Source: Calditrichia bacterium
GTDB lineage: Bacteria; Calditrichota; Calditrichia; RBG-13-44-9; J075
Direction of reading: 5' to 3'
Assembly: GCA_050633245.1 (NCBI GenBank)
Contig: JBOEGD010000002.1
Coordinates: 23,006-87,005 of the forward strand
Length of the DNA stretch: 64,000 nucleotides
Shown one piece after another: positions 53,097-56,573 of this stretch (positions are counted from its first letter, which is position 1; the number at the start of each line of letters is the position of its first letter). The notes below the pieces were generated by a model, which did no database searches, had not been told where the DNA came from, and worked only from the letters and a program-made list of their open reading frames with translations. Both the position numbers and the translations under genes were made by a program.

Positions 53097-54329
53097 CTAC
53101 ACTCGAGGCAAGTCGGAACGTACGGCACGGACATGCAAGCTGAAACTGGCTACGCGACCGTAAGGGCAGTAGCCGTAGCGGAAACTGACGGTCCATGCCT
53201 TCCCCGCGGTACTATCTCGATCCGCCGTCCAAATCCATCGCTGTGTACTGTCAAACACCGAATCAATGTATAAATCACCATTCTTTCTCTTAGACTCCAT
53301 CAGGCTCATCGCTTCTTCCAGTGTTGGCAAGCGCCAATCTGAATAGCCAGAAAATTTGCTCTCGTTCATATCGGCAACGTATTTTTCAGCTTTAGAATAG
53401 CTCAAATATTTTGCGTACCCCGATTGTTGCCACATCAACCCACTGGCTTTGTCGATAACGATGTCGCCTTTTTCTTCATATGCGTTAACAAATCTTTTCC
53501 TGACTGGATTAAAGTCTGAATCATAAAAACCGTGTTGTTTCAGCATCTGTTTAACAGCATCAACAGACAGTTTGTTTTCTGGTTTAGACCTAAAAACCTT
53601 CACTAATTTTTTGGAAGGAGTTAAAGGAGGGCTTTGATTTTCTCTTGATTTTGCCTCCTTTAAACGCTCTAACTCCAATTGCTTCTGCTTTAACTCTTTT
53701 CGGAGCTTCACGACTTCATCAGACGAAACGCCCTCAGGCACTTTAGCGGAGTCAGGCACAGATTTACTGGCCTCCTGCGGCAAAGCTTCGAGTGCCTCCT
53801 GTTGCTCCTCCAACTTTTCTTTGAGCTGCTTAAATTCCCGATGGTCTTCCAGTGACAGCCCAATATTTTCTGCCTTACTTGGGTTACTTTTATTAACAGA
53901 CTTCGGTAGTTCGGCTTCTCCTAATACACTACGAATGGTCTTGAACGCGAGGTCCAATCCATCCTCCTCAAATAAATCGCAATAGTGTATATCCGCGAAG
54001 GAGTCAGGTACCTTACAATTGTCCAACCTCACCGGGATGATAAACAGTTCACCATCCGGCATCTCCTGCAGTGTATCCAGCGCCAGCTTGAACTCTTTTT
54101 GCACGAATCCCTTATGAGAAACAGAAGTTTTGGAGAAGAAGATTATAACAAAGCGGGCTGATTTCAGCGCTTTCGGTGTCTCAATACGCCAGTTTTGCCC
54201 GGGCAAAAGATCTTTTTTATCCAGCCAGGGATCAAAGCCTTCAACCTTCAGCTTTTTGTACATCTTTAAAGCTTCAGCGTGATCCTCACGCGCGTGGCAA
54301 AGGAATATACGGTTTTTGGAGTTTATCAT
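53097..54329 (-). CDS. TIR - coiled-coil - DUF1566 (Lcl_C, C-type lectin fold) protein
   Basis: IFLCHARED..PWLD..LLPGQ..FVQKE TIR; VIDKASGLMWQQ..DWRLPT.EE..VRAVRS DUF1566. Confidence 0.88.
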   Translation of the reverse strand: MINSKNRIFLCHAREDHAEALKMYKKLKVEGFDPWLDKKDLLPGQNWRIETPKALKSARFVIIFFSKTSVSHKGFVQKEFKLALDTLQEMPDGELFIIPVRLDNCKVPDSFADIHYCDLFEEDGLDLAFKTIRSVLGEAELPKSVNKSNPSKAENIGLSLEDHREFKQLKEKLEEQQEALEALPQEASKSVPDSAKVPEGVSSDEVVKLRKELKQKQLELERLKEAKSRENQSPPLTPSKKLVKVFRSKPENKLSVDAVKQMLKQHGFYDSDFNPVRKRFVNAYEEKGDIVIDKASGLMWQQSGYAKYLSYSKAEKYVADMNESKFSGYSDWRLPTLEEAMSLMESKRKNGDLYIDSVFDSTQRWIWTADRDSTAGKAWTVSFRYGYCPYGRVASFSLHVRAVRSDLPRV

Positions 54330-54412
54330 AGATAATCATAAGTTTCTTTTGAACGATAGCCAAATAAAAGTGCGTTGTCTAATCTTTTATTTGAGTACTT
54401 CAAACCTCAATA

Positions 54413-54490
54413 CGGCCGATTAAACCAGCCGTGACAACGCAGCAATAAATCGAAGATAAATCATCAAATAATACAAAGAACCAAATCATT
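54413..54490 (-). repeat. conserved 78-nt element downstream of DUF1566 gene (copy 2)
   Basis: matches 53005-53082; contains ACGGC..GCCGT hairpin. Confidence 0.8.
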
Positions 54491-56573
54491 AAGGCCCTGA
54501 GCGTACGGCACGTACATAAATGCTGCTATCGTGCTCAATGATAGGGTTTGCGCAAAATCCGAGATTGAAATCGACGAGCCAGACCGTCTCGGCACTGGTA
54601 CAATCTGCCGTCCAAGTCCACCACTGCAAGTCATTAAAAATCGGATGAATATATAGAGGCAAGCTAACTGGTTCCTGAAGCGAGAGCAATTCCTCTGTGT
54701 CCGGAAGCCGCCAGTCGGCATAACCACCAAACCTATTGCTATTTAATTCAGCAACATATCTCTCCGCATCCGAGTAAGTCAAAGTTTTATCAGAACCGAC
54801 TTGCTGCCACATCAAGCCACTCCAAATATCCAGAATCACTCCATCTTCATTATTACTTTCGAAATAAAAAACTGCTTCGAAAGAATTATTATCAAGCTCA
54901 ACATCCGAGCTCGGTGGACCTATTTGAATATAGCGAAGATTTTTTTTCCTTACCTCTTCAGCACTCAATACCTCTGCAGAAATACCATGATTTAATAAAC
55001 AGGATTCGACCTCTACAAACTCCGAAAAACGCTGCCGAAGAATATCTTTCAGAAAACGCCTCATCTGATCTGTCCAACCAACTCCAGGTCTTTCTCGAGG
55101 CGTCATCTCCAGCCAGCGAACAACATACAAATACTCCACTATGGAGCGGTGGGCAAACTTGAAGCGGTCCAGCGCATCGCGATTGAGCAATGACCGACCA
55201 GTTAACTGCCAAGTATCCAAATTAATATCATATTTTTTAGCAATCTCATCTATTTCAGCAAATAGAAAACCGATGGACTTTCCACCATCACTCTTATCCT
55301 CGTTGTGGAATAACTCAATAGCGAGACATTTGGAGAAACTATAAAGCTCATTACTATCAAAAATTTCACGATTTAGCCAGGCCTTCACAATCACCTCAAA
55401 CAGTTGAAAAGAATAGCGATATTCCTTTTCCTCCTCTACGAGGTCCTGCAAATAAGACAGGATTAACGGTCGACACGTTAAATCCGGAATTTTCTCAATC
55501 AACAGCTTTGCTTTCTCCGCTAGAGAGACATCATCTGGGAAACGCTTATGTAAGTATTCAGATATTTGCCCCTCATCAAAAAGCGATAGATAACTTCTGC
55601 GAAATCTGTAAATTTTTGTGCCGTCAATCCCGCCAACCGGCCCAAATCGCAAGCGGCCCGTCTCGTCTGGCACCTCTTCCTCACGCGGAAAAAATTGGGT
55701 GCGACAGGTAATCACAAATGCGCGAAAGGCATCGGCCCACTTGCAAAGTTGATAGACTCGCTTGCGATGTTGGGGATCTTTTTTGACTGTTACTGGATCC
55801 TTTGACTGGTTTTCAATCTTTATATTGCGTTCCCACGCAGCGCGATCTTCATCGAGTGCATCAAGTAATAAAATGGTTTCGTCTTTATTCTCGATTCCTT
55901 CAACAATCGCTTCCAGATTAAAACGCTCATCATTGCTTATCAGCAGCGGGATTAATATGAATTTATGGTCGGATGCTGCTGTATTCTGCACAGATCGCCA
56001 ATAATAGTTTAACAGAAAAGCCGATTTTCCCATACCACTATCGCCAAGCAACAGAATATGCTTATTGCTGCTTGCAGCATTTTGTAACCAATGATCCATT
56101 TCCTGAAACAACCGTTTTCGCTCAGTTTGGTTTTCCCCAAAAGCAGGATCGATATCCTGACAATCCGGTTTCACATAACAACTGGCAGCTTGTTCAAAAT
56201 CTTCCGGTCTAAAAAACATCTTGGTTACATGATCAACCTTATTTCCATCTATCGGTGAGGACTTCGGATCACCTTTGTCTGTAAGCAGTTTAATTACCCG
56301 GTCAATTTTTTCTTGCTTATCGACGCCGAGCTTTGATTTTATTTCTTCCAGCAGAGCGACTAGAGCCATACGGCTGTCGGGCAGCGTTCCGAAGTTCACC
56401 AGCAGATCGTATAACCGGCTGGAGAACTCATCGGCAGCGCCTTCCAATTCAATCTGTTGCAACATCTTTGGAAAACCAGCAAAGGTATTGTTCACAATCG
56501 TTCTGCGACGATTTTGCAACGAGAACTGTTGCGCGAAGATAGCGATAATTTGGGTTCGGATATCTTGAGTCAT
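54489..56573 (-). CDS. EAD8-like - NACHT/STAND NTPase - DUF1566 protein
   Basis: N-terminal ~97 aa homologous to the next gene; Walker A GDSGMGKS, Walker B LLLDALDE, ITCR, RPL, FAHRS; C-terminal SGLMWQQ..DWRLP..YVRAVRSG. Confidence 0.86.
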   Translation of the reverse strand: MTQDIRTQIIAIFAQQFSLQNRRRTIVNNTFAGFPKMLQQIELEGAADEFSSRLYDLLVNFGTLPDSRMALVALLEEIKSKLGVDKQEKIDRVIKLLTDKGDPKSSPIDGNKVDHVTKMFFRPEDFEQAASCYVKPDCQDIDPAFGENQTERKRLFQEMDHWLQNAASSNKHILLLGDSGMGKSAFLLNYYWRSVQNTAASDHKFILIPLLISNDERFNLEAIVEGIENKDETILLLDALDEDRAAWERNIKIENQSKDPVTVKKDPQHRKRVYQLCKWADAFRAFVITCRTQFFPREEEVPDETGRLRFGPVGGIDGTKIYRFRRSYLSLFDEGQISEYLHKRFPDDVSLAEKAKLLIEKIPDLTCRPLILSYLQDLVEEEKEYRYSFQLFEVIVKAWLNREIFDSNELYSFSKCLAIELFHNEDKSDGGKSIGFLFAEIDEIAKKYDINLDTWQLTGRSLLNRDALDRFKFAHRSIVEYLYVVRWLEMTPRERPGVGWTDQMRRFLKDILRQRFSEFVEVESCLLNHGISAEVLSAEEVRKKNLRYIQIGPPSSDVELDNNSFEAVFYFESNNEDGVILDIWSGLMWQQVGSDKTLTYSDAERYVAELNSNRFGGYADWRLPDTEELLSLQEPVSLPLYIHPIFNDLQWWTWTADCTSAETVWLVDFNLGFCANPIIEHDSSIYVRAVRSGP

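What the first reader, a model, noticed from the sequence alone, without database searches (positions are those of the whole stretch)
53097..54630. Both DUF1566 C-termini look like DGR variable regions (remote hypermutation targets)
Seen: the last ~27 codons of both genes share a fixed scaffold (TGG NNC GTC NNT TTC ... GGN ... TGC ... CGT GCC GTA CGY TC). The intervening codons differ at positions 1-2 but mostly end in C/T. Gene 53097 has acc, agt, cgc, tac, tac, cct, tac, ggt, cgc, gcc, agt, ttc, agc, cat; gene 54489 has ctc, gat, aat, ctc, ttt, aac, cct, atc, cac, gat, agc, agc, att, tat. Known: DGR adenine mutagenesis of AAC/AAT template codons produces NNC/NNT codons, and C-type-lectin folds such as DUF1566 are typical targets. 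Inference: the immune module's ligand-binding tips are, or were, diversified by a DGR acting in trans. No RT or template repeat lies in this window. The two regions differ by one codon in length and at a few third positions, so they may use different templates or have drifted.
Basis: partly seen in the sequence, partly recalled or inferred. Interest (0 to 1): 0.85.

Follow-up and report, generated by a model that had tools for sequence, protein, structure and literature searches.

The report
Orphaned DGR-type variable tips on immune genes
Two neighbouring bacterial immune genes end in binding tips built like the hypermutable regions that retroelements (DGRs) rewrite in related bacteria, but this genome holds no such retroelement, so the tips are most likely frozen leftovers.

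Summary
Both minus-strand genes (53097-54329, TIR+Lcl_C; 54489-56573, EAD8+P-loop+Lcl_C) end in W.V.F..G.C...VRAVR tips with mostly C/T-ending codons.

The DGR reading is half right. Among the 77 closest homologous loci in other genomes, 11 carry a complete DGR (bAvd, template repeat, RT). Its template matches exactly this tip, with 0-2 non-adenine mismatches to the cognate tips. Its scaffold, TGG AAC GTC AAT TTC AAC AAY GGY AAT TGC ... In those loci the DGR usually sits between an X-Lcl_C gene and a second Lcl_C gene. Here the two genes are 159 bp apart with nothing between them.

Gene 1's tip has the codon make-up of active variable regions: 13 of 20 codons end in C, against a genome-wide share of 0.23. 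Both 3' flanks keep the phased TTTG array found after variable regions.

However, this genome (97% complete) has no RT, no template repeat and no Avd above cut-off. Both flanks lack the GACAAT core present after 19 of 19 active tips. The two tips also differ too much to share one template.

Verdict: orphaned or fossil DGR variable regions in an NLR-like/TIR immune module. This is a new member of a known kind.

The parts
53097..54329 (-). g1: TIR_2 + Lcl_C (DUF1566) protein, 410 aa. A sensor-effector of the immune module.
   Evidence: ORF. Pfam TIR_2 E=7.8e-26 (residues 8-124) and Lcl_C E=1.5e-22 (residues 290-404). 1782 homologues at E<=1e-5 among the 8000 candidates scored; most of the 120 listed carry TIR + Lcl_C; best non-self identity 54%.
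53115..53195 (-). g1 tip, WTVSFRYGYCPYGRVASFSLHVRAVRS. A DGR-type variable region without a template.
   Evidence: 13 of 20 inner codons end in C and 2 of 20 do not end in C/T (GTA, TTG), within the range of 19 cognate variable regions. 10 of 48 non-adenine mismatches plus 1 codon gap to the nearest known template (L048); synonymous-resampling P=0.017.
53005..53082 (-). g1 3' flank element: degenerate TTTG array, then a hairpin (about 53005-53023).
   Evidence: 82% identical over 78 nt to the g2 flank, and found at only these two places in the genome. TTTG at +40 and +49 after the VRAVR codon block; no GACAAT in the first 40 nt; about 25 nt inserted relative to real flanks.
54489..56573 (-). 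g2: EAD8 + P-loop NTPase + Lcl_C protein, 694 aa. An NLR-like sensor.
   Evidence: Pfam EAD8 E=1.3e-14, Lcl_C E=1.8e-17, AAA_16 E=0.0017 (below cut-off). The NTPase part is 40-42% identical to STAND-Lcl_C genes of family relatives.
54498..54581 (-). g2 tip, WLVDFNLGFCANPIIEHDSSIYVRAVRS. A more decayed DGR-type variable region.
   Evidence: 10 of 21 inner codons end in C and 3 of 21 do not end in C/T (GGA, GCA, GAG). 10 of 48 non-adenine mismatches plus 2 codon gaps to the L048 template; P=0.073.
54413..54490 (-). g2 3' flank element in the 159-bp g2-g1 spacer: TTTG array with 8-9 nt phasing, then a hairpin (about 54412-54432).
   Evidence: TTTG at +15, +23 and +32. 80% identical over 60 nt to the 3' ends of both L048 variable regions (E=9e-8). 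The non-coding stretch 54453-54486 is 75-90% identical over 29-41 nt to the flanks of 12 other loci. The fold of 54360-54500 has z=-3.2.
56624..58018 (-). g3: EAD8 + CHAT + TIR protein, 464 aa. Presumed effector partner of g2.
   Evidence: Pfam EAD8 E=2.4e-15, CHAT E=8.6e-11, TIR_2 E=3.7e-16.

Best explanation
g1 and g2 are sensor proteins of a three-gene NLR-like/TIR conflict module: EAD8-CHAT-TIR, EAD8-NTPase-Lcl_C and TIR-Lcl_C. Their C-terminal Lcl_C (C-type-lectin-like) binding tips descend from DGR variable regions.

In related modules of bacteria whose records are titled KSB1, Calditrichia and similar, a bAvd-template-RT cassette usually lies between two such target genes. It rewrites the last ~25 codons by adenine mutagenesis of AAC/AAT codons.

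In this genome the cassette is absent. The tips are therefore frozen, orphaned variable regions that now drift by ordinary mutation. g1 has drifted little and g2 more.

Shown: the homology of tip and flank to real variable regions, and the absence of RT and template in the assembly. Inferred: that a DGR once wrote these tips, that the degenerate GACAAT core makes them unfit for retrohoming, and that g2 signals to g3 through EAD8.
For: (1) 11 of the 77 closest homologous loci have a template-to-variable-region pair in which at least 75% of mismatches fall on template adenines, with an RT ORF next to each template. The 19 cognate tips have 0-2 non-adenine mismatches of 44-53.
(2) The template peptide is W[NVY][VI/A]NFNNGNCN.N.[VIL].NNN.VR[AL]VR.
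(3) Synteny in L058 and L066 is X-Lcl_C / bAvd / TR / RT / TIR-Lcl_C. A tip lies on each side of the template in 9 of the 11 loci. Here g2 and g1 are 159 bp apart.
(4) g1's tip has 13 of 20 C-ending codons and 2 non-Y codons. Cognate variable regions have a C3 fraction of 0.67 and 0-2 non-Y codons. The genome-wide C3 fraction is 0.226, and the other four paralogues have 3-7 C-ending codons of 19-21.
(5) Match to the nearest template at non-adenine sites beats synonymous resampling for g1 (P=0.017) and weakly for g2 (P=0.073). It does not for 3 of the 4 other paralogues.
(6) The non-coding 3' flanks share the phased TTTG array seen after 19 of 19 cognate tips and after 0 of 12 templates. Only 1.1% of random 75-nt windows have three or more TTTG.
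(7) The genome has no RT, template or remnant.
(8) GACAAT follows 19 of 19 cognate tips and neither g1 nor g2.
(9) g1 and g2 are 15/28, 17/28 and 15/28 identical at codon positions 1, 2 and 3 of the tip, and their 5' constant parts differ. Co-located real pairs are identical at non-adenine sites.
(10) In family relatives without any RT (G012, G014), g2-like genes have tips with 5 of 19 and 6 of 19 C-ending codons and no flank motif.
Against: - g1's tip is as fresh-looking as active variable regions, which also fits a live DGR that the assembly misses.
- The assembly has 59 contigs and is 97% complete, and no reads could be checked.
- Of 10 other genomes whose tips keep the canonical GACAAT flank, only 4 showed a DGR-type RT. 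Among genomes whose tips lack the flank it was 2 of 10. So RT absence from an assembly is common and is not clearly tied to flank state.
- The nearest known template still has 10 of 48 non-adenine mismatches. That lies at the poor end of what real variable regions score against non-cognate templates (2-10).
- The P values are modest and uncorrected.
- The tree that places g1 and g2 among DGR-linked domains is poorly resolved: 95 columns, 2 starred branches of 89.
- The TTTG array could be a 3'-UTR feature of the gene lineage and not a DGR signal.
Confidence: 0.68

Rival explanations
1. The tips are live remote targets. A DGR (RT, template, Avd) exists in this organism but lies in unassembled or unbinned DNA, or on a mobile element, and still rewrites g1 and perhaps g2 in trans.
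For: - g1's tip has 13 of 20 C-ending codons and only 2 non-Y codons, as active variable regions do.
- Remote targets more than 100 kb from the RT are documented (Wu et al. 2018, passages read).
- 6 of 10 assemblies with canonical-flank tips also showed no RT, so such cassettes may often be missed.
- DGR loci in the related set often sit on short contigs.
Against: - No RT, template or Avd above cut-off in 6.35 Mb at 97% completeness.
- Both flanks lack GACAAT, which follows 19 of 19 cognate tips.
- g1 has about 25 extra nt between the tip and the flank array.
- g1 and g2 differ in the template-covered span and by one codon in length, so two templates would be needed, whereas each of the 11 DGR loci showed a single template.
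- The usual place of the cassette, between the two targets, is a 159-bp spacer.
Confidence: 0.12
2. No DGR ever wrote these tips. They show only the conserved Lcl_C fold motif with a Tyr/Asn/Asp/Ser-rich binding surface that diverged among paralogues by ordinary duplication and selection. The likeness to variable regions is shared ancestry of the fold.
For: - The W.V.F..G...VRAVR motif is in 6 of 8 paralogue domains of this genome.
- C/T-ending enrichment is mostly explained by amino-acid composition.
- g2's codon statistics are not significant (P=0.25, 0.045 and 0.073).
- No template or RT anywhere in the genome.
Against: - g1 has a C3 excess given its amino acids (P=0.0006), while the rest of the same domain has 16 of 89 C-ending codons against 19.1 expected.
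- Non-coding flank homology to real variable-region ends (E=9e-8; 12 loci).
- The same gene order as in real DGR loci.
- The other four paralogues of the genome lack all these features.
Confidence: 0.12

Closest known systems
DGR targets of the DUF1566 / CLec2 class (category 'd' of Wu et al. 2018; type example the Legionella LdtA system)
   Same: The variable region lies at the C-terminal end of a DUF1566/Lcl_C fold, and the variable codons are NNY derived from AAY. Remote targets are known for some DGRs (passages of PMC5758913 read).
   Different: There is no cognate template, RT or Avd in this genome. The proteins carry TIR or an EAD8-NTPase and no signal for surface display was looked for, whereas LdtA is described there as a surface lipoprotein. 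I did not fetch or compare the Legionella locus itself.
DGR-diversified conflict-system sensors of multicellular bacteria (Dore et al. 2024, PMC10907252; Kaur et al. 2020, PMC7159879)
   Same: STAND/NACHT NTPase, CHAT/caspase and TIR domains are joined to a C-terminal C-type-lectin-fold variable region. EAD adaptor domains link sensors and effectors (passages read).
   Different: In the passages I read, those papers describe FGE-sulfatase-type (FGS/CLec) domains. 'DUF1566', 'Calditrich' and 'KSB1' have 0 occurrences in the Dore main text, and 'DUF1566' and 'Lcl' have 0 in the Kaur main text. Here the fold is Lcl_C and the DGR is missing. Their supplements could not be opened.
The DGR loci found here in other genomes (L043, L048, L051, L054, L058, L066, L072, L079, L080, L083, L106)
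   Same: The Lcl_C domain is 50-68% identical across the 77 loci fetched. The tip scaffold is the same and so is the phased TTTG flank array. In L058 and L066 the gene order is the same, X-Lcl_C followed by TIR-Lcl_C.
   Different: They hold bAvd, a template and an RT with a MutS_I-like tail. In 9 of the 11 the template and RT lie between two tips, and 19 of 19 cognate tips are followed by GACAAT. The window has a 159-bp spacer, no GACAAT and no template.
Legionella Lcl C-terminal domain (PDB 8q4e), a non-DGR member of PF07603
   Same: Best structural match of the AlphaFold model of g1's domain: TM 0.60, probability 1.00, E=4.8e-3. Pfam Lcl_C match E=1.5e-22.
   Different: 20% identity. The match is modest and the model is of medium confidence (pLDDT 77.9). 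It says nothing about diversification.

Membership tests
Active DGR variable region | A cognate template repeat in the same genome that differs from the tip only at template adenines | tested here: not met
   BLASTn of the last 204 nt of both genes gives only self and weak paralogue hits. In the adenine-tolerant ungapped scan the best non-self placement has 13 (g1) and 15 (g2) non-adenine mismatches of 81 and 84. No TR-like peptide in six frames. Of 81 AAY-rich windows, the 15 richest were inspected and none has the lectin scaffold.
Active DGR variable region | A DGR reverse transcriptase in the genome | tested here: not met
   PF00078: 0 matches, 4 of 4 candidates scored, genome 97.13% complete. 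tblastn with 10 cognate-type RTs gives a best E of 0.012. The L058 RT gives 0 matches. Positive control: the same family and queries hit relatives.
Active DGR variable region | An accessory Avd | tested here: inconclusive
   PF22296 bAvd gives 4 matches, all below the 40-bit cut-off (best 26.7 bits, E=3.4e-5). None is in the window. tblastn with two cognate Avds gives a best E of 0.37.
Active DGR variable region | The variable region lies at the C-terminus of a C-type-lectin-fold domain | tested here: met
   Lcl_C covers the last ~115 residues of both proteins. The model's best PDB matches are the Lcl C-terminal domain and then C-type lectin-like domains.
Active DGR variable region | Variable codons are NNC/NNT at the template's AAY positions, and non-adenine positions are kept | tested here: inconclusive
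   g1 has 13 of 20 C-ending and 2 of 20 non-Y codons, within the range of cognate tips. g2 has 10 of 21 and 3 of 21, just outside it. Without a cognate template, only the nearest foreign template could be used: 10 of 48 non-adenine mismatches for each gene.
Active DGR variable region (this clade) | GACAAT(C) core within 25 nt after the VRAVR codons (found here in 19 of 19 cognate tips and 0 of 12 templates) | tested here: not met
   Absent after both g1 and g2. That this core is needed for retrohoming is my inference, not a tested fact.
Active DGR variable region (this clade) | TTTG array with 8-9 nt phasing in the 3' flank | tested here: met
   g2 has three copies (+15, +23, +32). g1 has two (+40, +49). 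19 of 19 cognate tips have three or more, against 1.1% of random windows.
Active DGR variable region | Within-population variation restricted to template-adenine positions | not testable with these tools
   No sequencing run was listed. An exact 25-mer next to the g1 tip has 0 matches in metagenome contigs.
Lcl_C / DUF1566 (PF07603) | Profile match above the curated cut-off | tested here: met
   80.5 bits (g1) and 64.1 bits (g2) against a cut-off of 34.9.
EAD-linked NTP-dependent conflict system (Kaur et al. 2020) | The same effector-associated domain on a sensor NTPase and on a neighbouring effector protein | tested here: met
   EAD8 lies at the N-terminus of g2 and of g3. g3 carries CHAT + TIR.
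EAD-linked NTP-dependent conflict system (Kaur et al. 2020) | A STAND-type NTPase core in the sensor | tested here: inconclusive
   Only AAA_16 (19.3 bits, cut-off 32.6) and DUF815 (17.8 bits, cut-off 23.8), both below cut-off. The region is 40-42% identical to genes of relatives that end in Lcl_C. No NACHT or nSTAND profile match was seen.

The most novel reading that the evidence does not exclude
The window preserves the after-state of DGR loss in an immune module: antigen-sensor tips that were written by hypermutation and then locked.

Alongside it, a DGR lineage not named in the main texts I searched appears in records titled KSB1, Calditrichia and others. It consists of bAvd, a template and an RT with a MutS_I-like tail. 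It writes Lcl_C tips of TIR, caspase, CHAT-nSTAND and NACHT proteins.

This lineage marks its targets with a signal specific to the variable region: a GACAAT core plus a TTTG array phased at 8-9 nt. That differs from the GC-rich IMH plus cruciform that I recall for phage BPP-1. The series from canonical flank, to g1, to g2, to the RT-less relatives would then give a natural decay clock for orphaned variable regions.
Probability: 0.35. Interest if true: 0.6.

Novelty: new member of a known kind. Interest (0 to 1): 0.45.

Why it matters
DGR-diversified immune sensors are a recent idea (Dore et al. 2024). This locus and its relatives extend that idea to the DUF1566/Lcl_C fold joined to TIR, caspase and NACHT-type partners.

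They also show the other end of the story, where the hypermutation engine is gone and the receptors keep a fixed specificity. Such tips, with no detectable RT in the same assembly, were common in the genomes sampled: 6 of 10 with a canonical flank.

This is a warning for annotation. A variable-region-like tip alone does not show ongoing diversification.

The flank signal specific to variable regions gives a concrete, testable candidate for target recognition in this DGR lineage.

Tried and rejected
- **Reads.** The look-up of sequencing runs listed no run for 53000-54700, so read-level polymorphism could not be tested and read laying was not used.
- **Metagenome scans.** An exact 25-mer just upstream of the g1 tip gave 0 matches. 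The exact 18-mer at the 3' end of the g1 tip gave 14 matches. All are unrelated GC-rich sequences and none is like a template or a variable region.
- **Phage collection.** tblastn with the g1 domain gave one distant hit (Xylella phage, 29% identity). I did not follow it.
- **C26:136856-136896.** This matched the AAC-rich part of several templates. It is a CAACAA low-complexity intergenic stretch without the scaffold, so I rejected it.
- **One template for both tips.** Rejected. Third-position identity is 15 of 28, the 5' parts differ, and there is a one-codon length difference.
- **Remnants of RT or Avd in the window or in the spacers.** None.
- **Horizontal-transfer signal.** GC of the module is 0.447 against 0.456 for the window, so there is no signal.
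- **Flank state against RT presence.** 4 of 10 genomes with the flank have an RT, against 2 of 10 without it. There is no clear association.
- **Complex prediction of the two EAD8 regions (g2 1-105, g3 1-105).** No verdict: score 0.10 against a mark of 0.34. This counts neither for nor against binding.
- **Tree of the constant part of the domain.** Only the quick tree finished and it is poorly resolved.
- **Supplements** of papers were closed. The tables of Wu 2018, Roux 2021 and Dore 2024 may already list the DGR loci I describe.

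
Full report
**What is there.** Three genes lie head to tail on the minus strand between ordinary metabolic genes.
- g3, 56624-58018: EAD8 + CHAT + TIR.
- g2, 54489-56573: EAD8 + a P-loop region (AAA_16, below cut-off) + Lcl_C.
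- g1, 53097-54329: TIR_2 + Lcl_C.

g2 and g1 are 159 bp apart. The finding concerns the last ~27 codons of g1 and g2.

The genome holds 8 Lcl_C domains. W.V.F..G...VRAVR recurs in 6 of them and more loosely in two, so the protein scaffold is a family motif.

Against the codon usage of 2570 long ORFs (Y3 0.549, C3 0.226), the excess of C/T-ending codons in the tips comes mostly from amino acids that only have NNY codons. Given the amino acids:
- g1 has 16 of 27 C-ending codons against 7.7 expected (P=0.0006), and 16 of 19 codons with a choice end in Y (P=0.013).
- g2 has 12 of 28 against 7.6 (P=0.045), and the choice is not significant (P=0.25).
- The five other scored tips are unremarkable.
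- The rest of g1's own domain has 16 of 89 against 19.1 expected.

**DGR parts in this genome.** The assembly has 6,345,459 bases in 59 contigs and is 97.13% complete.
- RVT_1: 0 matches.
- tblastn with 10 RTs of the cognate type: best E 0.012. The L058 RT: 0 matches.
- BLASTn of both tips: only self and weak paralogue hits.
- A scan that forgives any mismatch where the candidate template has A: the best non-self placements have 13 and 15 other mismatches of 81 and 84, all in A-rich low-complexity DNA.
- No template-like peptide in six frames. Of 81 AAY-rich windows, the 15 richest were inspected and none has the lectin scaffold.
- bAvd: four matches, all below cut-off and none near the module.
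- No RT or Avd remnant in the window or its spacers.

**Relatives.** In 60 related genomes there is no orthologue of the locus and no template-like match. There are only 65-87% identical matches, at most 348 bases long, to Lcl_C genes; only 5 candidates per genome were scored.

Eight of 15 other genomes of the family have RVT_1 matches. Two true DGRs in one of them (L024, 18 of 20 mismatches at template A; L025, 18 of 18) serve an FGE-sulfatase-like tip on a large P-loop protein, not Lcl_C.

**Homologous loci with working DGRs.** A scan of one genome per species with an alignment of four of this genome's Lcl_C domains returned 77 loci. They are 50-68% identical, from records titled Calditrichia, KSB1, Scalindua and others.
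- Self-comparison found 16 loci with a repeat pair whose mismatches fall at least 75% on one base. In 11 of them that base is A and the other copy is the C-terminal tip of the Lcl_C gene. The other five (biased to G, C or T) are not DGR-like.
- Each of the 11 has an RT ORF with a Y[VL]DD motif (YVDD in 10, YLDD in L048) beside the template.
- A further five loci hold an RT, an RT fragment or a template-like sequence.
- The templates encode W[NVY][VI/A]NFNNGNCN.N.[VIL].NNN.VR[AL]VR. At the DNA level this is TGG AAC GTC AAT TTC AAC AAY GGY AAT TGC ...
- The 19 cognate tips recognised by my motif have 0-2 non-adenine mismatches of 44-53. L048's two variable regions did not fit the motif.
- Gene order in L058 and L066 is caspase- or X-Lcl_C, bAvd, template, RT, TIR-Lcl_C. 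A tip lies on each side of the template in 9 of the 11 loci.
- Other targets are NACHT-LRR-Lcl_C, CHAT-nSTAND1-Lcl_C and Lcl_C proteins with unassigned N-termini.

**g1 and g2 against real variable regions.**
- *Composition of the inner codons.* Cognate tips have 0 non-Y codons in 14 of 19 (maximum 2) and a C3 fraction of 0.67. g1 has 2 of 20 non-Y and 13 of 20 C-ending. g2 has 3 of 21 and 10 of 21. The other four paralogues have 3-6 non-Y and 3-7 C-ending codons.
- *Fit to the nearest template at non-adenine sites.* Real tips against non-cognate templates score 2-10 mismatches with 0-4 codon gaps. g1 scores 10 of 48 with 1 gap and g2 10 of 48 with 2 gaps. The other paralogues score 13-16. Against 300 synonymous resamplings, g1 gives P=0.017 and g2 P=0.073. 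Three of the four others are not significant.
- *g1 against g2.* They are 15/28, 17/28 and 15/28 identical at codon positions 1, 2 and 3 of the tip, so one template has not written both recently.

**The 3' flank.**
- A 78-nt non-coding element follows both stop codons. It is 82% identical between the two and occurs nowhere else in the genome.
- Real variable regions are followed by GACAAT (19 of 19; GACAATC in 18) and by three or more TTTG within 75 nt, spaced 8-9 nt apart (19 of 19). Templates have neither (0 of 12). Random windows reach three TTTG in 1.1% of cases.
- g2 has TTTG at +15, +23 and +32. g1 has it at +40 and +49, after about 25 extra nucleotides. Neither has GACAAT.
- The end of g2's tip plus its flank is 80% identical over 60 nt to both L048 variable-region ends (E=9e-8). 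The purely non-coding part matches the flanks of 12 other loci.

**Other genomes without an RT.**
- In family relatives with no RVT_1 match (G012, G014), g2-like genes have tips with 5 of 19 and 6 of 19 C-ending codons, 5 and 4 non-Y codons, and no flank motif. Relatives that do have an RT keep canonical flanks in five cases. These are few genomes and they are kin.
- Outside the family, a DGR-type RT was found in 4 of 10 genomes whose tips keep GACAAT and in 2 of 10 whose tips lack it. Variable-region-like tips without a detectable RT are therefore common. Absence from an assembly is weak evidence on its own.

**Fold and tree.**
- An AlphaFold model of g1's domain (54-row alignment, pLDDT 77.9) best matches the Legionella Lcl C-terminal domain (TM 0.60, E=4.8e-3), followed by C-type lectin-like domains.
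- In that alignment the tip's x positions carry 2.8-3.5 bits of entropy, between invariant W, F, G, V and R.
- A quick tree of the constant part puts g1 and g2 in a 62-row group with 10 DGR-served and 30 GACAAT-flanked domains, apart from the four other paralogues. Support is weak.

**Literature (passages of main texts only).**
- Wu et al. 2018 place DUF1566-type variable regions in category 'd' (51 DGRs, 14%). They document remote targets and note a MutS_I motif in three RT tails.
- Kaur et al. 2020 describe EAD adaptors and DGR-linked FGS domains in conflict systems.
- Dore et al. 2024 describe DGR-diversified STAND, CHAT and TIR sensors.
- 'DUF1566', 'Calditrich' and 'KSB1' do not occur in the main texts of Dore 2024 or Roux 2021.
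- Searches used. Supplements were closed.

**How it most likely works.**
- *Inferred from domain content and Kaur et al.:* g2 senses a ligand with its Lcl_C tip, switches its NTPase, and recruits g3 (CHAT protease + TIR) through EAD8. g1 is a second sensor fused directly to TIR.
- *Inferred from homology:* a DGR once wrote the tips. The cassette is now gone from the locus and from the assembly, so the specificities are fixed and drift.

I give this reading 0.68, an undetected live DGR 0.12, and no DGR history 0.12.

**Limits.**
- No reads were available.
- There is no genome of the same genus in the set.
- The statistics are modest and uncorrected.
- The role of the GACAAT core and the TTTG array is untested.

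Noticed in passing
window 53005-53082 and 54413-54490 (minus strand): A 78-nt non-coding element follows both stop codons. It is 82% identical between the two and occurs nowhere else in the genome. It ends in a conserved hairpin (CGGCTGG..TCGGCCG). It is homologous to the 3' flanks of real DGR variable regions in other genomes.
   Followed up: yes
window 52950-52976: A ~26-nt palindromic GC-rich element downstream of g1 recurs at 92-96% identity (one site 91%) at 12 or more other places in the genome (contigs C7, C9, C10, C11, C26, C27, C31). It looks like a REP-type intergenic repeat.
   Followed up: no
L043, L048, L051, L054, L058, L066, L072, L079, L083, L106 (RT ORFs): All 10 RTs scanned from the Lcl_C-serving DGRs carry a C-terminal match to MutS domain I. 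8 of 10 are above the 20.6-bit cut-off. Wu et al. 2018 mention such a motif in three RTs.
   Followed up: partly
L035-L110, 3' flanks of the tips: Variable regions, but not templates, are followed by GACAAT(C) and a TTTG array phased at 8-9 nt (19 of 19 against 0 of 12). Templates read GA[A/G/T]AATC at that place. 45 of 74 tips without a local template also have GACAAT, so they may be remote or orphaned targets.
   Followed up: partly
L024 7148-7920 and L025 6086-6940 (a genome of the same family): Two classical DGRs whose variable regions lie in an FGE-sulfatase-like tip. In L025 it belongs to a large P-loop (GDPGSGKTT) protein of more than 1000 aa. Part of that gene is masked.
   Followed up: partly
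L069 10986-11060: A template-like, Asn-rich tip (WNVNFNNGNCNHKHVDNNNYVRAVR) that carries a TTTG flank of the variable-region type and GAAAATC. It could be an unmutated variable region or a template with an odd flank.
   Followed up: no
L083 597-8136: One template with five variable regions in five neighbouring Lcl_C genes on one contig.
   Followed up: no
own genome C8:50439-50738, C10:11927-12226, C31:48227-48532, C2:261723-262028: Four small ORFs (115-132 aa) with bAvd-like matches below cut-off and no RT anywhere in the genome. They are probably stand-alone four-helix-bundle proteins.
   Followed up: no
own genome C16:11232-11573, C18:59364-59699, C31:10080-10409, C12:59329-59679, C36:5198-6172: Six further Lcl_C domains, two of them in one 1426-aa frame. 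Their tips carry Glu, Gln or Lys codons and have ordinary codon usage, and they lack the flank element. They are older or never-served paralogues.
   Followed up: partly
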